A stretch of DNA of 64,000 bases from Octopus vulgaris (taxonomy: Eukaryota), in NCBI GenBank assembly GCA_951406725.2, contig OX597837.1:33976001-34040000 (forward strand), read 5' to 3'. The notes below the pieces were generated by a model, which had not been told where the DNA came from, did no database searches, and saw only the letters and a program-made list of their open reading frames with translations. This document shows, piece by piece, positions 2,151-62,526 of the stretch. The translations under genes were made by a program, and so were the position numbers. Each line of letters begins with the position of its first letter. The first letter of the stretch is position 1.

Positions 2151-2186
2151 TTATTTTTTTTTATTTAATTTGCTTTGCAGGAGCAA

Positions 2187-2266
2187 CTGTTTTATCGAAA
2201 GCGTATATTGTTGTTAAATGCTCGAAATACGAGACTAGAAAAAGCAACCAACAACTGATGAAGGGT
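2187..2266 (+). ncRNA. Non-circularly permuted hammerhead-like motif, copy 1
   Basis: Stem III cgtat(2202-6)/atacg(2227-31); H17=A2207; stem I ttgttg(2208-13)/caacaa(2249-54); GAA 2224-6; CTGATGA 2255-61 plus an extra A; stem II gctc/gggt. Confidence 0.65.
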
Positions 2267-2494
2267 CGTTCTTTGTGTTGTTTGTCTTGTTTTCCATTTG
2301 TGTCTTTCATTGTTCGAAAACTAGTTCATATTCCATGTAATCGTACTTCGTATTTTTTGTTGTACACGTTTCGTATACATATATATATATATATATAACG
2401 GGAAGGTTTACGAAAATAAACAAAAGACGAAGGCAGGTGGAGTACAAACAAACAAATGTATTAGTATGGCGCTGAGGAATAGAAATAGAACAAG

Positions 2495-2532
2495 TCTTTT
2501 ACGTTTCGAGCCTACGCTCTTCGACAGAAAGA
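2495..2532 (-). ncRNA. Minimal type-I hammerhead-like motif (A6U variant) in a short dispersed repeat
   Basis: Minus strand: tcttt-CTGTCGA-A-gagc-gtag-gctc-GAA-ACGT-A-aaaga. Stems I and II are perfect and stem III is palindromic. Confidence 0.55.
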
Positions 2533-3228: not shown

Positions 3229-3861
3229 TGTGTATGTGTGTATGTTTATACATATATATAAACACACATACGCACATACACATACACGCGCACACACATA
3301 CACGCGCGTTCACATACACATACACGCACGCACACAGACTGCGCGCTCACATACACACACTCGCGCACACACACACACACGCACACACACACACACACAC
3401 ACACACGCATACACACACACACAATTCTGACATTGTTATCGCCGTAACTTCCCATACTGTCGACCAATGATAACGCCGGCTTTACAATGACGTCATAGGT
3501 GAGTCACTCCGCACTTGAGAGACGCCCGTATACTTCAGTATTAGGCATATTGGACACCACACCCTGGATACTTTCCTCAAAAGACTCTTATTTACACTTC
3601 GTCGTCGTCTTTCTCTTCTTATTTTATTTGTTACACATTTTTTTTGTATATATTTTACTTTCTAATTCGTCTCAATTTCACAATTTTTTTTGTATTGCTC
3701 TTTTTCTTTAACAAGTGACAAAACTTTCAGCTAGAACGAAATGACGAAGTTTATAAACAACATTTTAGAAGACTCTAAGCAAAACACAAGGTACATTCCA
3801 GAAGTTTTCAGATTTTTTTCGGGAGAGACATTTATTAATTTCAAAGAAGTATAAAACTCTA

Positions 3862-4083
3862 TTGTGTCTGGGGAGAGTCATTTTCTTTTTGTACCTTATA
3901 ATGTAACACACTCACCGGTAAAATTTCCACTTGTTTCTTATTTTTATTGCGTCTTGCAACTGAAAAGGTTGCAAGACGCAACGAAAATTTTAGGAAAATA
4001 AAAATAAGGAATAAGTGGGAATTTTACCGGTGAGTGTGTTACATTATAAGGCACAAAAAGAAAATGTCTCTCCCCAGACACAA
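3862..4083. repeat. Fold-back (inverted repeat) element, probably PLE pLTR-derived
   Basis: ~85-bp arms ttgtgtctggggagag...cttatttttatt and aataaaaataagg...ctctccccagacacaa; perfect 14-bp inner hairpin 3947-3981; part of the right arm plus its flank recurs at ~42865-42970. Confidence 0.8.
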
Positions 4084-4361
4084 CAGAATATGCTTCAACA
4101 CACGAACTCATATAAAGAATCTTGCAAACCGAATCCAAAAACGAAATATAAAACTCTAATCTCCTTCGAAATAGAATTCTCTGAATTGTTGTGGAGCTCA
4201 CTTTGTGAGGGGTCCATGGAAGCCCTTTGCAGTGAAGGTGTTCAGGCCCCTTGTCACAGCCACTTTCATTGTCAAAATGACTGCACTTGAGGTTCTCCTT
4301 GAGTTTGGGGAGGTACCAAAAGTCACAGAAAGCAGGACGATGAGGGACAGTTTTGAGGCCC

Positions 4362-4489: not shown

Positions 4490-4574
4490 TGAGGCCCATC
4501 TCTGTCACGTAGTTGGTCACCAGGACGCTCATTGCTGAACACCCATGGAACAAACTTTGCGCAAATAAAGAATG

Positions 4575-4653
4575 ACCCTTCATCAGTTGTTGGCTGTTTT
4601 TCTAATCTCGTATTTCGAGTATTTAACAACAATATACGCTTTCGATAAAATAG
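4575..4653 (-). ncRNA. Non-circularly permuted hammerhead-like motif, copy 2
   Basis: Inverted copy of 2187-2266 with the same stem I and III pairs; stem II actc/gggt. Confidence 0.65.
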
Positions 4654-4681
4654 TTGCTCCTGCAAAGCAAATTGAATAAAA

Positions 4682-8342: not shown

Positions 8343-8701
8343 CTCTCTCTCACGCATTAACGTCAGGTCACTCTTCAAGTGTTACTGCAAACATTTCGTA
8401 ACAACGCCAAACACATAGAAAAAGCCAGCAACTAATGCCTCCTTAAAAAGCCTCAATTTTAGCGAGAAGATAACTACATCCATCCGAAGAACCATAAGAA
8501 AAGGGCAAGACGTACAACTAGCCCACTCCGGCTCCTCTCTGAGAAGACACCTCACAAAGAAACGAACAAGGGACAACAATCAATGCACACTAGCAAACTG
8601 CTCCATCCGTGACACAGATTTATGTCAACGGGTAAATGTCGTGTATAGAATACAATGTAACAAATGCAACAAGTTCTGTTCTATGTGGGTAGCACAACAA
8701 G

Positions 8702-9299
8702 GAACTGTCTGGAACAGGTTGGGTCTTTTGCACTGTTTGGGTGCAACACAATTTCCTTCTTTGTTTCCAAAAACTACCGGTGTCAGAAACAAGAAAGCAA
8801 CCTTAAAAAATATGACACTTTATTTCGAGACAATGGAATTTACTATGCTACGCCAGACTTTACAGTCCATCATAGCATTACGGAGGTCCTGTTGCTGGAT
8901 GCCTGTATCCCTGGAGATTACATCAGGGTAGGAGAGTTGGTAAATTGGTGACCACTTGGTGTAGGTACCGCAAGACTGAAGTTAAACACTTGTAAAGATA
9001 AACCTCACAAAAACTCCAGCAGCAACAGAGCCGGTCAAATCCCAAGCGTCTGGGACAGGAGAATAGGCTGATAACACGTTGAAACACGTCTTCTCTCTTC
9101 AACGAACGCCATAGAATTCTCGTTCCCAGTTTTTAGCGCATGGGCATTAGGGAACTTCCTTAGGCCTTTTCAGAAGGTTCCAGCCCCGCACAACGCACAC
9201 TGAAGAATGACGTCAGCTTTTAGCGCATGTGCATTAGGGAACTTCCTTAGGCCTTTTCAGAAGGTTCCAGCCCCGCACACGCACACTGAAGAATGACGT
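8702..9299 (+). mobile_element. ~600-bp insertion with 9-bp TSD inside the GIY-YIG domain; possible RLE non-LTR 3' fragment
   Basis: CACAACAAG at 8693-8701 and 9300-9308; internal peptide DNGIYYATPDFTV...LLLDACIPGD resembles a PD..D-type RLE motif; ends in an ~86-bp tandem duplication (~9130-9299). Confidence 0.6.
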
Positions 9300-12552: not shown

Positions 12553-13013
12553 TAATCGAAACACGGAGTAGATGAAACAGGAACAACTGAAGAAGGGGAA
12601 TATTCCTTGTGTTGTATGTCCTGTTCCTCTGTTTTTTTTTTGTTGTTGTTTGAAAAAAGTTCGTTTCTATGTTTTCATTTCACATTGTGTTCAACGTTTT
12701 TTTTATGCCCTGTATCCATATATGCATGCGTATATGCATGACACAAACATATACACACACATACATCTATATATATATATAAATAATCCTTTCTACTATA
12801 GGTATATAAATATATATATATATATAAAAACATATATATAAAGCAGTGATAAGGGAAACTGCAACGTTATTATCTGTCCGAATATGTTTGGTGCACGTTC
12901 GAACTGGGGAAGAAGCTACTCACTACGGATGTATATATCTCGGTTGTTGACAAATGATGTGTATACATTTAGATCAGCTCGCGGCGCCATCTGTCTAGAC
13001 TGTGAGATGCTAG

Positions 13014-13449
<436 letters not shown>

Positions 13450-13570
13450 TAACACCGCATCCTCACCACATTAATTAATTGTAAGACTGCGTTGGGTGAA
13501 CATATCTAGTCTTTTCTGCAAGATGATGTGTCCCAAAACGGAAAGTAATGGAGGTTGTGGAAGTGTATAT

Positions 13571-14336
13571 GTGTGGGAACAGGTTCTGTTAATCAGGGAT
13601 TCTTCAAGCAAGTCAAATTTCCGTGTGAAGGCTTTGCCGGTAAAGAGAACGATACAAATGTTGGTTAAGCCGTGGCACGCCGTGGGGGCCTGTGCACAAC
13701 GGCCCAAAACAAAGAAGTCCGAACGCCAGAAGTTATTGAGGGCTTTCGCCAAAGGATTACTCCATCTTCAAAGATGTCAACAACATAAAATTGGCACAGC
13801 AGAAGGTCATGCTACCGGATGTTGTGTGGGAACGGGTTCTGTTAATCAGGGATTCTTCAAGTCAAATTTCCGTGTGAAGGCTTTGCCGGTAAAGAGAACG
13901 ATACAAATGTTGGTTAAGCCGTGGCACGCCGTGGGGGCCTGTGCACAACGGCCCAAAACAAAGAAGTCCGAACGCCAGAAGTTATTGAGGGCTTTCGCCA
14001 AAGGATTACTCCATCTTCAAAGATGTCAACAACATAAAATTGGCACAGCAGAAGGTCATGCTACCGGATGTTGTGTGGGAACGGGTTCTGTTAATCAGGG
14101 ATTCTTCAAGTCAAATTTCCGTGTGAAGGCTTTGCCGGTAAAGAGAACGATACAAATGTTGGTTAAGCCGTGGCACGCCGTGGGGGCCTGTGCACAACGG
14201 CCCAAAACAAAGAAGTCCGAACGCCAGAAGTTATTGAGGGCTTTCGCCAAAGGATTACTCCATCTTCAAAGATGTCAACAACATAAAATTGGCACAGCAG
14301 TCACGCATAAGCAGAAGGTCATGCCACCGGATGTTG
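13571..14336. repeat. Tandem repeat, 249-bp unit x ~3
   Basis: gtcaaatttccgtgtgaagg at 13612, 13861 and 14110 (period 249); units nearly identical. Confidence 0.95.
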
Positions 14337-14590
14337 AAAAGTCTAAAGTTGAAGCCATACCATTTCACATGTGCCATAGCAATTAAAAATAGATGAGAAG
14401 AGCGAACGAGTAAATTATTGCATACGGCTTCTGAAGAGCAGATGCAGCTGGTCGAAATAGCACAATGACACTTGTAAACAATAGGCTGGGTGCTTTGACC
14501 TTGTGATATGAATGTATGTATGCATGTATGTATGTATCTATGTATGTATGTATGTTTGTATGTATGTATGTATGTATGTATGTATGTATG

Positions 14591-18077: not shown

Positions 18078-18348
18078 TATATATATCTTCTTCCTTGACT
18101 CTCTCGTTGCTCACGCGTGACCAACGGCCATCCATCTTTCTTTCTTCCACTTCCTTCTTAAAGACAAAATATGCTTTTTTCTGCCTCTTCTCAATGCTCG
18201 TTTTTCCAGCGTTCACCACTTCACATCGTCTTAACAGCCCTCACCATTTGTTTTTACTCTTTTGTTCTCACTGTCCTGTTTTTGTCACCACTTTTGTTAC
18301 CTCCGCAAAAAATCCCAAATTTTATTTAATTTGCTTCGCGGGAAGGAT

Positions 18349-18423
18349 TGTTTTAACGAAGTCGCGTCTTGTCCTTACCTTCGAAACGCAGAGTAGATAA
18401 AACAGGAGACAACTGATGAAGAG
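18349..18423 (+). ncRNA. Non-circularly permuted hammerhead-like motif, copy 3
   Basis: Stem III gcgt(18364-7)/acgc(18386-9); GUC site with H17=C18368; stem I ttgtc(18369-73)/gacaa(18408-12); CTGATGA 18413-9; extra helix tgttttaac/gataaaaca. Confidence 0.65.
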
Positions 18424-21168: not shown

Positions 21169-21288
21169 TACTGTTTTTATCTTTATTTGTACTGTTTTTT
21201 TCTTTATTTGTATTGCTTTTACGTCCTGTTCTTGTCAACTTTTTTACCCCTCCGAAAAAAAATATTTAATTCGCTTTGCGGGAAGGAT

Positions 21289-21364
21289 TGTTTCCATATA
21301 GTCGTGTTCTGCCCTTACCTTCGAAACACGCAATGAGTCGAAACAGGGGCAGCTGAAGAAGGGG
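21289..21364 (+). ncRNA. Non-circularly permuted hammerhead-like motif, copy 4 (best paired)
   Basis: Stem III cgtgt(21303-7)/acacg(21326-30); H17=T21308; stem I ctgccct(21309-15)/ggggcag(21346-52); GAA 21323-5; CTGAAGA 21353-9 plus A; stem II cttc/gggg; extra helix tgtttc/gaaaca. Confidence 0.7.
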
Positions 21365-21589
21365 AATGTTCCTTGTGTTGTATGTCTTGTACTCCGTTTC
21401 CTTGTTTTGTTTTTATGTTTTCGTTTCTCGTTGTGGTCTACGTTTATTTGGGGTGTCCTGTACCCATATAAGCATGTATATATACATATAGATGTAGGTA
21501 TGTACATATATGTATGTATGTATGCATATGTTTTATTTATTAAATTGTTATCATATGATCGAACGCACGCGTCGTCTTCTACCAAGTAA

Positions 21590-21676
<87 letters not shown>

Positions 21677-52982: not shown

Positions 52983-53912
52983 GGCATCTCTACTTGCAGG
53001 GAGTGTGGAAAAGTATGTACTTAACAGAGGTGAACAGGTATGTCCGTACTGTTCAGGTTTACTAGAACCATTAAGCAACGGCATTACGCAAATTCGAGAC
53101 GTAGTCATTGCACGTACGTATGCATGTATATAATGTACGTACGCGTGTATGCATGTTCGTACAAGATAGTCAACGGGCTGAAAATGAGGACCTCGTGTTT
53201 GCCAAATGAACTTTTTAATTATTTGGCCACAACACGCCTACACTATTCAACAGTAATTATAAAACAACAGATACGATTGTTGTTTTTTAGCCCGAGGTCA
53301 ACCTTTGTCGAGCAGACACATACAATCACAGACATAGCAGCTACGATAACGCATATTTATACTATAGCGGTTTATTATGGAGTAGACTAACTCTACTCAA
53401 ACTATCCTAAGCTTCTGGTCTGTTGACCCATATTAAAACTGAAATCTACCACAAACAGGTAAACACCAACGACCATTTGTGCCTCACTGGGGTTCTTCTC
53501 TTCTAATTACTAATATAATTAATTAGCGGTATGCCTGAGTGTCTGTGCAATAGCTGCTAGAGTACTTTGTCACTGTCTGTATTTCGTGGAAACACCGACA
53601 GGTCGTTTAGTTGAATACCGAATAGAAATATCTAAATTATTGATGTTCCAAAACAGCTATATATATCGAAACGTAGAGTAGATGAAACCATGGCGACTGA
53701 AGAAGGGGTTTTTTCTTTGTGTTAATTGTCCTGTACTCTATTTTTGTTGTTGTTTAAAAAAATGTCCAGTTCCTTGGGTTTGTGTCTATGTTTTCGTTTC
53801 TCATTGTGTTCGACGTTTTTTTGGTGTCCTGTACTCATATATGCGTGTATATATATACATGTAGAGGTAGGTACGTACATATATGTTTATATATATGCAT
53901 ATGTTTTATTTA

Positions 53913-53947
<35 letters not shown>

Positions 53948-56488: not shown

Positions 56489-57646
56489 TTATAACACTGG
56501 GATAGTTCTGGTGGGAGAGGAGACGAGTACGGGGGAGGAGAGACCGTCCATGTTATTGTAACTGGTCAGCCCCACGGTCAATGGCATGTGTGGACCAGCA
56601 TAGCTAGGAAACTGGAAGGCGCTTGCGGAATTGTAGCGAGGGCTCAACGTCGTCAAGGGGCTCAGCGAGCTCCAGAAATGTAGGATGGGTGTCCGATGAC
56701 TAAGGAGGGGAGACGCCAGAAAGATGGGCGTGTGGATGTTGGAATAGGATGATGACACTTTGAGCGTGGGACTCGGGATCGGAAGTGACGTCCCCGGGGA
56801 CAGAGCAGAAGAGGACGGCGCGTCGACGTGCAGGTTGAGCGGGATGGGTTTGGGTCGTGCCGGGGTCAACACCGAGGACGAGGTCGACGGGCTGTGGCTC
56901 TGCTTGCGATGTGCCGCTTCACGCCGTTCCTCCGCCGCCGACAACGACGACGACAAAGATAACGACGTGGACAAAGAAGAAGGCGATGACGATGACATCG
57001 GCGAAGAAGACGACGACGACGGTGATGACAACGATGACGTAGGTGTCAGCAGGGGCGATGACGTCGACGACGTCGGCGACGATGAATATGACGAAAGTGA
57101 TGACGTTGATGATAACGACAATGGCGACGGAAAATCGACTTTCTTTTCTGAATACTGAGACTTGCCGGAATCCCTTTCGTGTGACTCTAGCTTTATCCCA
57201 GATCTGTGTTCGCTCCCCATCGAAGCAGCGGAATTAGAAGGATGATGCCAAACACTTGCAGCAGCTCTGTTCTCTAGATTGGTGGGTGCAACGAAATGCG
57301 GATAGACCCGTTGGCCATACTCCATGGCTAGGCTTTCCATTTTCACTTTGAACGGAATTTTACTTTCGATTTTTTCAATTTCGGGGAACGAAACGAATTT
57401 GTAGACAAATTTTTGGCCCATGACCTTTTTGATGATGTTCTTGTCGTAGTAATAGCGAAGGGCCCGGCTGAGCTTGTCATAGTTCATGTTGTTCTTGTTT
57501 TTGCGCAAGCCCCAGAGTTTGGCAACTTCCTCGGCATTCACCAGCTTGAATTCACCGTCGTTGTTGGTCCACTGGATAATGTTGCGATGCTGGTGGCTGA
57601 GGAGAAGTTCCAGAAGGAACTGCCAAAGTGTGATGTTGGATTCCAT
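56489..57646 (-). CDS. ELK3: ETS-domain transcription factor of the Elk/TCF subfamily (invertebrate co-ortholog of ELK1/ELK3/ELK4; N-terminus most ELK3-like), 385 aa
   Basis: N-terminal ETS domain [11 protein letters not shown]...[50 protein letters not shown]; MAPK D-site RPKPIPLNL; C-box [13 protein letters not shown]; DEF motif FQFP; C-terminal [12 protein letters not shown]; uninterrupted ORF. Confidence 0.96.
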
Positions 57647-57648
57647 AC

Positions 57649-57670
57649 CTGTAGGAAAAACAGGAAAACA
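57649..57670 (-). other. Splice acceptor 2 nt upstream of the Elk ATG
   Basis: Minus strand gttttcctgtttttcctaCAG|GT ATG GAA: polypyrimidine tract plus CAG; upstream exon not located. Confidence 0.75.
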
Positions 57671-57956
57671 GCAAATGAGTCAGGACAAAAATAAAAAAAA
57701 GTGAAACAACAAATACTAAAAAAAGACACAGAAAACGAATAAGAACGTCATCATCATCATCATTGTTCGACCGTGGTCGAGACTTTCATAGTTTTTTCAA
57801 ATGGCTAATAATGTGTGCGCGCGCCACTACTACACACATTGGAAAGCATTGTACAACCAAGCACTAAAGAAGATCTTTCCTCCTCCATGAAACAAAGCTG
57901 TTCCCGCTGGACGTCAACCCAGTATTTCTAAGCTACGGACCAAGTGATTTATTGTA

Positions 57957-59157: not shown

Positions 59158-60365
59158 TTAGGTTGGCAAGAAAGTAATTTCGGTTTTTTAGTATGAAATA
59201 AAAGTCATTTTTTTTCCATACAAAGAATGAACTTTAATCAATTATATATTTTCCATTTTGTTCGGCGAGCTTTTGCCATCTTTCTGGCAACTTCCTGGTT
59301 CAGTGCTCGTAGAGCTTCTGGTCCTTATCAGCCAAAAACTGAAGGACGTTTAATTTCAGGTTTTCATCATTATTGAAAGTTTTACCATTCAAGGAATTTT
59401 GCAAACTTCGAAATAGATGGTAATCTGATGGTGCAAGGTAAGGGCTATATGGTGTACGTGACATCACTTCACAACAAAGCTCCAATAATTTTTCACAAGT
59501 TAGCAAAAACGTATGTGATCTAGCGTTGTCATGGTGGAACGCGATTCCTTTACGATTTGTCAATTCTGGTCGTTTTTCTTTGATTGCTTCCTCCAGTTTC
59601 ATTAGTTGTTGACAGTAAACATGTGAATTGATCGTTTGGTTCCTTGGAAGCAGCTCAAAATACACAACACCTTTGTAATCCCACCAAATTGACAGCATGA
59701 CCTTTTTTTTATGCAATTCAGCTTCGTTTTTGATTGATGTTATTGTAGACAATCCATTTTTCATCACCAGTGATGATTCGATAAAAAAAAAAAAGGGTCG
59801 ATTTCATTGCGTTTGAGATGCATATCGCAAATATTGATTCGTGGTGTAAAGTGAATCTCTTTCAATTGATGTGGAACCAAAATATAGAGCTTCTTTAAGA
59901 GTCCAAGATATTTTAAGTGATTTTCAATTGTTGTGTGTGATACATTTAACCTCTCTGCAATCTCTCGCAATCAGATTGAATTATAGTTGTAATTCGGTTA
60001 TCACCTTCGGTAGGTCGACCAGAACGTTGGTCATCTTTGAGTGAAAAATCCTCAGAACGGAATTTTTAAAGCCATTTCTGACATATGCGTTGTTAAGCAA
60101 TCAACACCATAGACTTCACATATCTCTTTGTGACCCCGGAAGTAAAAAAGCAAAATATGGCGAAAGTCGTCGTTTTTGTACTGCATGTTAAAATTGACAC
60201 TGAACTAACAGCTATTAACAAAATTATGCGCAATTTGCTTCTAAAGTAAGCTAAAAGTAACGGCTATCAAATGTCAAAAGGAAAAAAAAATCACAACATT
60301 GATAAAAGTCATTTAAAAAATCGTAATTATTTGCGAAAAACGAAATTATTTTCTTGCCAACCCAA
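59158..60365 (-). mobile_element. Mariner (DD34D) transposon with both TIRs, decayed transposase
   Basis: TIRs ttaggttggcaagaaagtaatttcg and cgaaattattttcttgccaacccaa; KKVMLSIWWDYKG, HHDNARSH...PYSPYLAPSDYHLF (D-34-D); frameshifts. Confidence 0.93.
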
Positions 60366-60479: not shown

Positions 60480-62128
60480 TTATAATTCAACAAAGAGAAC
60501 ACTCCATCTGGCGAGAGTCAAATATTCCTGTTTTAGGACCACAATACATATTTTCGGGGCGTTACTAATAGTTTCACGTGTCTGGAAATCCAGACACGTT
60601 CTCCAGGCGCAGACCACTCTTCGTACTGAACTAAGAACTTTAAATATGGCATGGGACGTGAGAATACGCGAAAAACGTGAGAAAATGGTAGCGTATAGAA
60701 AATCCTAACTTCTAACCGGAAAACGAAACCAACAGACCTGATGTAAATGTAAATAATGTACGAAATTGAATGTAAATTGTGTAAGGAGAGTACAAATGTA
60801 TAAAATATGAAGTAGAAATGTAACGGTATAGATATAAGAAATGTCGGGAATGTAAAAATTTATAAAGTATAAAAAATAAACCTAAAGAAATACTAAAATA
60901 AAGGATGGGGGACGATAGTAGTGTGCGATCTAACATCCTTAGTCTTTTAAATAATAAGGTCGGGGCAATGTCAAATCAATCTGGGATGGATGGGATTGTC
61001 CAGTTCTTCAAAATATATTTTTGCATGTGTCCGCAACTACTGAAAATTTCAGATCTCGAGTTCAATACTAAGTTGGGGACTTTTGATCTGAACAGAATCT
61101 GGGTTCTTTCGGCCAAGCAAAGACTACATTTCTTTGGTCCATTCACATATGTGGGTTTTTCGATTATTTTCCATTTAATCGTACATGGCGTTTTATTCTT
61201 TTTCAAAGCCCTCACGCGGCTGGCTAACTTTGTGACCTTGCTCTTGTCCTTACGTAGTAACGAGGCTATGTGGTTGACATAGCGTTTTTTAAACTCCCCT
61301 TCACATAATCTAATATAGGTATTTTCCCCGGTGTATTATTATTACTATTATTATTATTTAGGGTTGTAGTGACTTTCGTCTCATATACAACTGCCTTGGT
61401 CATGCACTATTTCTCGAGTGGACAGGCTCCTGGATCGCAACAGTTGCATCTAGCTTCAGGCTCTTTATGTTGGCCACGTGTAATGAAACTATGGTGGGGC
61501 AGCAGCTATACGGCAATTTCCCTGATCGCCTGTTGAAAAATTTTCTATATTTGTGATTTACAGGAAAATGTTTGTCAAGGAGAGTCAAAAATATCCTACC
61601 AATGTTCGTTTTTACATTGAGTGAAAAGGGAAGGGCAAATCAAATTATTTTCCTTAGCCATATCTATCCTTAATATCATGATAAGTGTTAGAGGGATTAT
61701 ATGTTAACTCATCTTTAAACCCGCAATTGGCTAGGGCCTTATTATAGTAGCGGGCTGCCCTCTCGAAAATTTCTTTAGAAGAGAGGTAAGACACTCTTCT
61801 ACTAATGTTGGCTACTAGGTTTATGAATATGGCGGGAGGGTGACAAGACTGCCTGTTTACATATGTAAGCTTCTCGTTCTGTTTATAAAAAAGTTTATAT
61901 GAGGAAGTGTTTAGATCTAGGGACACGTCTAAATAGTCTACTGTAGAGAGGTTAGTAGCTACTGTGATTTTAAATTCTAATTGGTTAACGGTAGAGATAA
62001 GTTTTTTTCTAAATCTACATAGTGTGTGCCCATCATGCTCGTGGGAAATAATAAAACCATCGTCATGGTATAGGCCAATGTCATGTGTTGGGTTAATGTA
62101 TTTAGTATGAATAAGCCTGCAAGATGAC
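60480..62128 (-). mobile_element. Penelope-like retroelement (Naiad-like), 5'-truncated: RT C-terminus, GIY-YIG and HHR terminus
   Basis: GLYHDDG...VDYLDVSLDL...SCHPP; II*FALPFSLNVKTNIGRIFL; CNC..CPL..C..KAVVY...YIRL..FKKRY.NH; KCSLCLAE...LNSRSEIFSSCGH; stops and frameshifts. Confidence 0.9.
60559..60610 (-). ncRNA. Type-I hammerhead-like motif (A6G) at the Naiad-like PLE 3' end
   Basis: gcgc-CTGGAGA-acgtgtctgg-attt-ccagacacgt-GAA-acta-t-tagt-A-acgc; 10-bp perfect stem II. Confidence 0.65.
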
Positions 62129-62130
62129 AA

Positions 62131-62526
62131 GAGTGGCTGTGTGGTAAGTAGCTTGCTAACCAACCACATGGTTCCGGGTTCAGTCTCACTGCGTGGCATC
62201 TTGGGCAAGTGTCTTCTGCTATAGCCCCGGGCCGACCAATGCCTTGTGAGTGGATTTGGTAGACGGAAACTGAAAGAAGCCTGTCGTATATATGTATGTA
62301 TGTGTGTGTGTGTGTGTTTGTCCCCCTAGCATTGCTTGACAACCGATGCTGGCTGGTGTGTTTACGTCCCCGTCACTTAGCGGTTCGGCAAAAGAGAGAC
62401 CGATAGAATAAGTACTGGGCTTACAAAGAATAAGTCCCGGGGTCGATTTGCTCGGACTAAAGGCGGTGCTCCAGCATGGCCGCAGTCAAATGACTGAAAC
62501 AAGTAAAAGAGTAAAGAGTAAAGAGT
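62131..62526 (+). mobile_element. SINE family A
   Basis: Head (minus the first bases), body and tail. Confidence 0.9.

What the first reader, a model, noticed from the sequence alone, without database searches (positions are those of the whole stretch)
21289..21364. Dispersed repeat encodes a non-circularly permuted (pseudoknotted) hammerhead ribozyme candidate
Established: HHR types I, II and III are circular permutations of three strands: A (stem III-NUH-stem I), B (stem I-CUGANGA-stem II) and C (stem II-GAAA-stem III). Seen: here the order is A-C-B, which is not a circular permutation. All core bases are canonical, plus an extra A after A9. Across four complete copies (2187, 4575 minus, 18349, 21289) pairing is kept by compensatory change: stem III cgtgt/acacg, gcgt/acgc, cgtat/atacg; stem I ctgcc/ggcag, ttgtc/gacaa, ttgtt/aacaa. 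A 3-6-nt linker joins the tips of stems I and II. Inference: those tips are adjacent in the active fold, so the crossover could replace the usual loop-loop contact. The carrier is a ~400-bp non-coding mobile repeat usually lying next to (TA)n tracts, probably a PLE-derived or retrozyme-like element; six copies in 64 kb suggest high genomic abundance. From memory, natural non-circular HHR permutations have been reported before, so novelty of this topology and host needs a literature check.
Basis: partly seen in the sequence, partly recalled or inferred. Interest (0 to 1): 0.9.

Follow-up and report, generated by a model that had tools for sequence, protein, structure and literature searches.

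The report
Four-way-junction hammerhead ribozyme of Naiad retroelements
A jumping repeat with over 12,000 copies in this octopus-like genome carries a likely self-cutting hammerhead RNA folded in an arrangement not found in the papers searched, and the same predicted fold sits in related retroelements of corals, jellyfish, a parasitic worm and a crustacean that were reported to lack canonical hammerheads.

Summary
Compensatory change across ten subfamilies shows that the strand before GAAA pairs with an upstream strand (21282-86). The 'extra A' starts a new helix. Two extra helices close the backbone break between A9 and G10.1 as a predicted perfect four-way junction (motif 21247-21364). This breaks the published assumption that CUGANGA and stem II are contiguous. 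The carrier is a 750-800 bp non-coding Penelope-like repeat with at least 12,600 copies. Read by eye, the same fold with different letters lies in 9 of 53 published Naiad 3' ends (four phyla), elements reported to lack canonical hammerheads; six nematode Naiads carry type CSG. It also lies behind Naiad RT remnants in this genome and in two metagenome contigs. The 5' ends of copies pile up just 3' of the predicted cut (about tenfold, p 2e-9; replicated), which suggests cleavage in vivo; reverse-transcriptase stalling is not excluded. Cleavage is untested and the mobilising partner is unknown. The scan had not noted this before.

The parts
21169..21594 (+). 5'-truncated copy of the non-coding Penelope-like repeat (subfamily A), between microsatellite tracts, ending in the ~40-nt tail before (TA)n
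21247..21364 (+). whole predicted ribozyme, six helices, core opened between A9 and G10.1
21247..21251 (+). helix X, 5' strand (pairs with 21360-21364)
   Evidence: 85.7% paired, 2 of 6 pairs change on both sides; 42 of 70 copies with 4 Watson-Crick pairs at this register, at most 4 when slid
21252..21281 (+). helix Y hairpin (21252-58 with 21275-81), ends directly before G10.1; one mismatch in this copy at 21255
   Evidence: 88.6% paired, 4 of 7 pairs change on both sides; recovered unprompted by RNAalifold
21282..21286 (+). stem II 5' strand (G10.1 = 21282), detached from A9; pairs with 21318-21322
21288..21294 (+). helix P 5' strand (stem I-stem II interaction helix); pairs with 21340-21346
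   Evidence: 4-9 bp in 10 of 10 subfamily majority lines; out of register in the MAFFT alignment
21303..21314 (+). block S: stem III 5' strand 21303-07, H17 21308 (predicted cut on its 3' side), stem I 5' strand 21309-14
   Evidence: 5'-end pile-up
21318..21330 (+). block G: stem II 3' strand 21318-22, G12-A15.1 21323-26, stem III 3' strand to 21330
18299..18423 (+). second full-length motif (subfamily C; U16.1 18367, C3 18413), helix X weakened in this copy
2160..2340 (+). subfamily B copy (U16.1 2206, C3 2255), cut off 5' inside helix Y
4567..4681 (-). subfamily B fragment (U16.1 4634, C3 4586), lacks the 5' arms of helices X and Y
12557..12730 (+). partial copy beginning two bases before G12, about 12 nt 3' of the predicted cut
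53667..53915 (+). partial copy beginning two bases before G12, about 12 nt 3' of the predicted cut

Best explanation
The stretch is part of a 750-800 bp non-coding Penelope-like repeat whose RNA is predicted to fold into a self-cleaving hammerhead with a scrambled strand order and a backbone break between A9 and G10.1, likely closed by a four-way junction. Strand order: X5', Y hairpin, II5', P5', III5'-UH-cut-I5', short linker, II3'-GAAA-III3', P3', I3'-CUGANGA, X3'. Shown: the order, the canonical core and covariation of I, II, III, X and Y. [quoted passage not shown] It is the SGC/CSG strand cycle opened at a new place, through helix X. Inferred role: it cuts read-through or head-to-tail transcripts 3' of 21308, releasing unit RNAs that a Penelope-like RT copies from a fixed 3' end into (TA)n sites. 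Copies made from cut RNA stop at or a few bases short of the cut; copies that span the ribozyme come from uncut or re-ligated (possibly circular) RNA. The ribozyme most likely descends from a Naiad element; the present mobiliser (Naiad or Neptune) is unknown.
For: Five helices on 35 copies: 91.5% of cells paired, 17 of 28 pairs with change on both sides, 41-46% when slid. Upstream stem II 5 of 5 Watson-Crick in 10 of 10 subfamilies, stacking energy -8.7 to -10.5 against -2.5 to -6.6 kcal/mol for the downstream alternative. Same fold, different letters: Naiad-type motif, 443 genome matches against 0 control, 1.36-1.49 kb behind Naiad RT remnants in 3 of 10 RT-motif loci, where the bases after A9 cannot pair with the strand before GAAA. 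By eye in 9 of 53 published Naiad 3' ends from Cnidaria, Acanthocephala, Crustacea and Cephalopoda. In 2 of 118 metagenome loci; the one long enough shows X 11 bp and Y 8 bp although the descriptor that found it did not ask for them. 5' ends: 22 in 624 nt at risk at -1..+8 against 6 in 1952 at -41..-2, p 2e-9; second sample 16/783 against 8/1794, p 3e-4. The sister orders SGC and CSG cleave in vitro. PLE hammerheads carry a conserved extra base between 9 and 10.1, so the backbone tolerates an excursion there.
Against: No cleavage assay. None of the papers seen describes a hammerhead with a helix junction between A9 and G10.1, so competence is extrapolated. Most 5' ends lie 5-20 nt 3' of the site rather than on it, and the best single change point is -7 (flat from -2 to -11). 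Naiad-type copies show no clear pile-up (2 of 15 between site and G12). Subfamilies are related, so changes on both sides count few events; pair-count measures do not beat the shuffles (82 of 500). The downstream strand keeps 3-4 possible pairs with the stem II 3' strand in all ten subfamilies. Helix P scores only 60.6% on the MAFFT alignment. Nested folding gives no unusual stability (z -1.2 to +1.0). Only 32 of 73 full copies pass the strict descriptor. Published Naiad ends were parsed by eye only.
Confidence: 0.75

Rival explanations
1. It is an ordinary type-SGC hammerhead with an extra A. The upstream stem II and helix X form an alternative, inactive state, a switch.
For: The bases after A9+1 can form 3-4 pairs with the strand before GAAA in all ten subfamilies, starting with G-C (first four pairs nearly all paired if G-U is allowed). 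An extra base at 9/10.1 is typical of PLE hammerheads.
Against: Those pairs are G-U-rich and weaker. The same bases pair Watson-Crick in helix X with change on both sides, which explains their conservation. In the Naiad-type motif of this genome, the metagenome loci and the published Naiads this pairing is impossible, yet the core is intact.
Confidence: 0.08
2. The six-helix fold is real and selected but does not cleave efficiently on its own. It needs a protein, or serves as a binding or packaging signal for the RT, and the 5'-end pile-up reflects the RT falling off at the pseudoknot.
For: Metazoan PLE hammerheads cleave poorly in vitro; 8 of 9 retrozyme dimers did not cleave in a recent test. 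Many 5' ends fall at +7 to +17, on stem II and III 3' strands. About half the copies span the site (49 of 101 extend beyond -11).
Against: Every catalytic base is kept across subfamilies and phyla while all stems change. 20 of 101 copies end at +1..+8, where the RT has already displaced every partner strand, and the rate falls about tenfold 5' of the site.
Confidence: 0.14
3. Chance arrangement or decayed remnant of ordinary PLE hammerhead halves, amplified passively with the repeat.
For: Copies are dead-on-arrival and many are mutated; amplification inflates counts.
Against: Covariation in five helices, 0 hits in 40 shuffles, and the same architecture with different letters in other elements, phyla and metagenome contigs.
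Confidence: 0.03

Closest known systems
Type-SGC and type-CSG non-circularly permuted hammerheads (Eckert et al. 2023, PMC10085705)
   Same: S-G-C block order; canonical core; short linker from stem I to stem II; a helix joining the other sides of stems I and II; same cyclic order of strands.
   Different: Stem II 5' strand is not contiguous with CUGANGA, which that paper assumed it must be; two extra helices form a predicted four-way junction; found in an animal genome in a retroelement in over 12,000 copies, whereas the paper's 583 SGC sequences came from metatranscriptomes, its 2 CSG from metagenomes, and none from genomes of known organisms.
Naiad Penelope-like elements (Craig et al. 2021, PMC8557442)
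   Same: (TA)n targets, 5' truncation, partial tandems, inverted partial copies, 30-40 bp tail; the published octopus Naiad 3' end has this fold and an identical stem I to subfamily A.
   Different: The paper says Naiads lack canonical hammerheads and labels these 'HHR_core/half_core'. The window repeat is non-coding, shows no alignable similarity to the Naiad 3' UTR outside microsatellite, and its copies are younger (92% against 82% pairwise).
Non-LTR retrozymes and minimal PLE hammerheads (Cervera and de la Pena 2014, PMC4209133; Li et al. 2026, 10.64898/2026.07.22.740005)
   Same: Non-autonomous, non-coding, PLE-derived units with one hammerhead per unit and head-to-tail copies.
   Different: Those carry type I hammerheads with a weak stem III that work as dimers; this one has a 5-bp stem III and a complete monomer fold, and is mostly dispersed and truncated.
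Pseudoknot (pistol-like) hammerhead (Zhan et al. 2024, PMC11300833)
   Same: Extra helix and pseudoknot around stem II, with the catalytic core unchanged.
   Different: There A9, G10.1 and the G10.1-C11.1 pair stay in the usual continuous stem, and its 'helix IV' is a different element.

Membership tests
Hammerhead ribozyme | Core C3 U4 G5 A6 N7 G8 A9, G12 A13 A14, A15.1-U16.1, H17 not G | tested here: met
   G12-A15.1 invariant or nearly so; C3-A9 fixed by the search pattern in most rows; U16.1-A15.1 in 42 of 44
Hammerhead ribozyme | Stems I, II, III with G10.1-C11.1, supported by covariation | tested here: met
   95.3% paired, 11 of 15 pairs change on both sides; G10.1-C11.1 in 39 of 44
Hammerhead ribozyme | Stem I-stem II peripheral contact | tested here: inconclusive
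   helix P present in 10 of 10 majority lines and in Naiads by eye; 60.6% on the misregistered alignment
Hammerhead ribozyme | Site-specific self-cleavage 3' of H17 | not testable with these tools
   only indirect: 5'-end pile-up
Type I/II/III hammerhead (Rfam) | Circular permutation of the C-G-S order | tested here: not met
   order is S-G-C; no hammerhead among the 150 of 326 window matches listed; 0 matches at gathering score in 4 loci
Type-SGC hammerhead | Block order S-G-C with a short stem I-stem II linker | tested here: met
   (linker about 3-6 nt)
Type-SGC hammerhead | Stem II 5' strand directly after CUGANGA (at most 1-2 inserted bases) | tested here: not met
   the partner is upstream; the downstream bases form helix X
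Non-autonomous Penelope-like element / non-LTR retrozyme | Fixed 3' end with optional tail, 5' truncation, partial tandems, inverted partial copies, microsatellite target, no ORF | tested here: met
Non-LTR retrozyme (strict) | Type I hammerhead in tandem units | tested here: not met
   different topology; only dimers or partial dimers seen
Non-LTR retrozyme (strict) | Circular RNA | not testable with these tools
   only contigs of guessed RNA runs available
Naiad-derived | Sequence continuity with a Naiad ORF or 3' UTR | tested here: inconclusive
   shared fold and stem I, but no alignable UTR and no PLE ORF after the unit start in 30 of 30 loci

The most novel reading that the evidence does not exclude
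A seventh natural hammerhead topology: the core is opened between A9 and G10.1 and closed by a four-way junction. It is active, widespread in Naiad retroelements across several animal phyla, and present in over 12,000 copies in one genome. Together with type CSG in nematode Naiads, it overturns the view that Naiads lack hammerheads and that non-circular RNA permutations are rare curiosities of environmental sequence.
Probability: 0.7. Interest if true: 0.92.

Novelty: new variant of a known kind. Interest (0 to 1): 0.87.

Why it matters
It would extend the six-permutation scheme of the best-studied ribozyme with a form that splits the 'indivisible' CUGANGA-stem II block, and place non-circular permutations in animal genomes in large numbers. 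It gives a testable answer to why Naiad elements seemed to lack hammerheads and to what PLE ribozymes do: thousands of dated insertions record where template RNAs ended. A four-way junction next to the active site is also a natural docking point for engineered sensor domains.

Tried and rejected
Rfam: nothing relevant. Nested folding of single copies: uninformative for a pseudoknot. One search had a one-column slip in stems I and III; one search is the corrected count. Helix P on the MAFFT alignment is out of register between subfamilies. A hairpin directly after A9 was considered first and dropped: weak (-0.7 to -3.9 kcal/mol) and superseded by helix X. Autonomous partner not found: no PLE ORF upstream in the fetched loci (both outputs partly cut) or after the unit start; 3 of 30 GIY-YIG loci hold the repeat in antisense, about the background rate; one inverted fusion to a Neptune fragment (L310) and one next to a Naiad fragment (L340) are single cases that chance at (TA)n sites could give; the wider chimera search was swamped by other repeats. 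Expression: no RNA holder listed; contigs of four guessed RNA runs carry pieces of the repeat, with a profile like that of the DNA contigs, so nothing follows. The context of the metagenome hits could not be read. Arthropod Naiads of spiders and ostracods have G and C blocks but no stem II that I could parse. Not held: Hammann 2012, Weinberg 2015, Lunse 2017. Earlier scan notes: nothing on this DNA or fold.

Full report
Observation. The sequence at 21289-21364 has every hammerhead core base, in the order cleavage-site block, GAAA block, CUGANGA block. Related copies lie at 2187, 4575(-) and 18349, and two partial copies at 12557 and 53667. The window lies in a 2.8-Gb genome, G000. A pattern for GAAA, 20-40 bases, CUGANGA-AGRG has 13,332 matches there against 684 for the reversed control, so at least about 12,600 copies keep the exact core. 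The genome holds a motif matching the published Octopus Naiad 3' end, which makes an octopus the likely host.

Known order. Eckert et al. 2023 (PMC10085705; parts 1-6 of 8 read; one supplement search showed only oligo rows; its supplementary alignments were not seen) name this order type SGC. They show cleavage, show that a fourth helix joining stems I and II is needed, report no examples in genomes of known organisms apart from one doubtful GCS case, and assume that CUGANGA is directly followed by stem II.

The fold differs from SGC. I gathered copies by three similarity searches and from the first 100 pattern matches (30 loci given plus 58 regions fetched; ten loci judged unrelated and one canonical type I motif were dropped, leaving 80 copies, 43 full). 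In 10 of 10 subfamily majority lines the five bases before GAAA pair 5 of 5 Watson-Crick with a strand 23-27 nt upstream of U16.1; the bases after A9 give at most two Watson-Crick pairs plus G-U. On 44 aligned copies the upstream helix is 96.4% paired with 3 of 5 pairs changed on both sides, the downstream one 76.8% with 1 of 5. Stems II(upstream), III and I together are 95.3% paired. Directly after the upstream strand comes a strand that pairs just 5' of the stem I 3' strand: helix P, the equivalent of Eckert's interaction helix. It is 4-9 bp in all ten majority lines but out of register in the MAFFT alignment (60.6%, 80.7% when slid by one).

Two more helices close the break. A hairpin (Y) ends on the base before G10.1, and the strand immediately 5' of its first arm pairs with the bases immediately after A9 (X). 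With the junction fixed by Y alone, X has four Watson-Crick pairs in 42 of 70 copies and in at most 4 when slid by up to six bases. On 35 copies the five helices X, Y, II, III, I are 91.5% paired, 17 of 28 pairs change on both sides, and slid controls give 41-46%. RNAalifold finds Y and stem I unprompted. The four strands C11.1-G12, A9-X, X-Y and Y-G10.1 then meet with no unpaired base: a perfect four-way junction in which the core can stay stacked on stem II while X stacks on Y (inference; the stacking of four-way junctions is recalled knowledge). The A9-G12 pair over G10.1-C11.1 is as described. Read as a cycle, the strand order equals that of SGC and CSG, opened at a new point. Because subfamilies are related, these changes count few independent events; the pair-count measures do not beat the shuffles.

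Independent instances. Craig et al. 2021 (PMC8557442; passages, section 6 and supplement) state that Naiads lack canonical hammerheads, target (TA)n, and mark some as 'HHR_core' or 'HHR_half_core'. I read by eye about the last 330 nt of 53 of 54 Naiad consensus sequences, with some further passages. Nine show stems I, II(upstream), III and P around an intact core: three Acropora, one Clytia, one Morbakka, Pomphorhynchus, Eulimnadia and two Octopus. Where enough upstream sequence was visible, X and Y are there too (Acropora 8 and 6 bp, Pomphorhynchus 5 and 8, Eulimnadia 5 and 8, Octopus 3 and 8 of 9). Two more (Beroe, Euprymna) are degenerate. Six nematode Naiads carry an intact type CSG. The rest show no such core in the part seen; nine is a lower bound. 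In G000 the Naiad-type motif has 443 matches against 0 and lies 1.36-1.49 kb downstream of Naiad RT remnants in 3 of the 10 loci found by an RT motif (weak RVT_1 matches below cut-off for two of them). Two of 118 metagenome loci fit the descriptor, and the longer one has X 11 bp, Y 8 bp and a 6-bp P.

Carrier. Copies share a fixed 3' end before (TA)n, some with a further ~40-nt tail, and vary at the 5' end; inverted partial copies and head-to-tail partial tandems of period 748-796 bp occur. These are the Penelope-like hallmarks listed. No PLE ORF follows the unit start in 30 of 30 loci. Subfamilies A and F are 92% alike pairwise, Naiad-type ends 82%, and the youngest Neptune family, which has intact 781-aa frames, 98%. 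So the ribozyme looks Naiad-like, but the mobiliser may be Neptune. It was not identified.

Footprint of cleavage. I took 101 copies chosen only by a pattern at CUGANGA (the first 30 loci and 20 further regions per subfamily; two listed matches already held as L003 and L009, both spanning the motif, were not included) and mapped their 5' junctions. 46 end 1-35 nt 3' of the predicted cut, 2 at it, 4 within 11 nt 5' of it and 2 in the next 30 nt. The rate is 22 per 624 nt at risk at -1..+8 against 6 per 1952 at -41..-2 (p 2e-9; similar without the 8 copies in two-copy loci). A second sample of 72 copies gives 16/783 against 8/1794 (p 3e-4). This fits templates that began at the cut. Against: most ends stop some bases short; the best single change point is -7, flat from -2 to -11; junctions are blurred by TA microhomology; Naiad-type copies show no clear pile-up (2 of 15); and RT drop-off at stems II and III could explain ends from +9 on, though not the 20 ends at +1..+8.

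Mechanism. Shown: order, core, covarying helices, repeat anatomy, end distribution. Inferred: the standard hammerhead chemistry in a monomeric fold, cutting transcripts into unit RNAs that a Penelope-like RT copies into (TA)n; uncut or re-ligated RNA gives the copies that span the site. Cervera and de la Pena 2014 (passages) proposed such a role for PLE hammerheads and noted their low activity in vitro; Li et al. 2026 (parts 1-3 of 5) tie retrozymes to PLEs using type I descriptors only.

Novelty. Searches for non-circular permutation, type-SGC, Naiad with ribozyme, permuted with Penelope, 'between A9', 'helix IV', four-way junction with retrotransposon, and cephalopod or Octopus with hammerhead found no description of this form or of Naiad ribozymes. 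The pseudoknot hammerhead (Zhan 2024, parts 1-2 of 6) and the core variants of Perreault 2011 (passages) keep A9 and stem II together. A 2026 paper (passages) mentions variants with additional helices, citing Weinberg 2015, which was not held; that paper, Lunse 2017, Hammann 2012 and subscription journals could hold a precedent. Verdict: a new topological variant of a known ribozyme, very likely a real fold (about 0.9), probably active (about 0.75), interest 0.87.

Noticed in passing
Supplementary File S5 of PMC8557442: Six nematode Naiad consensus 3' ends (Nbra-1, -2, -3, Hcon, Hpol, Asuum) read by eye as intact type-CSG hammerheads with the interaction helix; Eckert 2023 knew only two CSG sequences, from metagenomes.
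   Followed up: partly
Supplementary File S5 of PMC8557442: Oyster, ark clam, pearl oyster, hemichordate and two Clytia Naiads share another conserved, apparently covarying 3' UTR structure with no hammerhead core; a candidate for a different or unknown ribozyme. Clam, mussel, one cubozoan and one ctenophore Naiad have motifs that resemble twister ribozymes (resemblance recalled, not tested).
   Followed up: no
L310 (G000:C9:53351331-53354594) and L340 (G000:C18:21262500-21268000): Inverted copies of the repeat abut a 5'-truncated Neptune RT/EN fragment (no TA tract between) and a 5'-truncated Naiad RT fragment (9-nt TA-like spacer): possible shared integration events.
   Followed up: partly
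G000, e.g. L300, L305: Young Neptune-type PLE family with many intact 781-aa frames; its 3' end has a deviant minimal-hammerhead-like motif.
   Followed up: partly
window ~2490-2530, minus strand; L094/L102/L175: Other non-coding repeats with canonical or minimal type I PLE hammerhead motifs; the one next to copy 2187 shares its stem II letters with subfamilies B and D.
   Followed up: no
window 56491-57679, minus strand: 396-aa frame of an ETS-domain (Elk-like) transcription factor exon (identified by recalled motif).
   Followed up: no
window 60900-62325 minus; 8418-8928 plus; 20-542; 59302-59803 minus; 3850-4100: Penelope-type RT-EN remnant, GIY-YIG remnant, two Tc1/mariner-like remnants and a long inverted-repeat element (names from recalled motifs).
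   Followed up: no
unit boundary of the repeat, window 21582-21594: The tail ends in a 5' splice-site-like word followed, in head-to-tail copies, by a pyrimidine-rich stretch, as in the 5' UTR intron of Penelope elements.
   Followed up: no
window 13474-14383: 303-aa open frame made of an about 72-aa unit repeated roughly three times.
   Followed up: no
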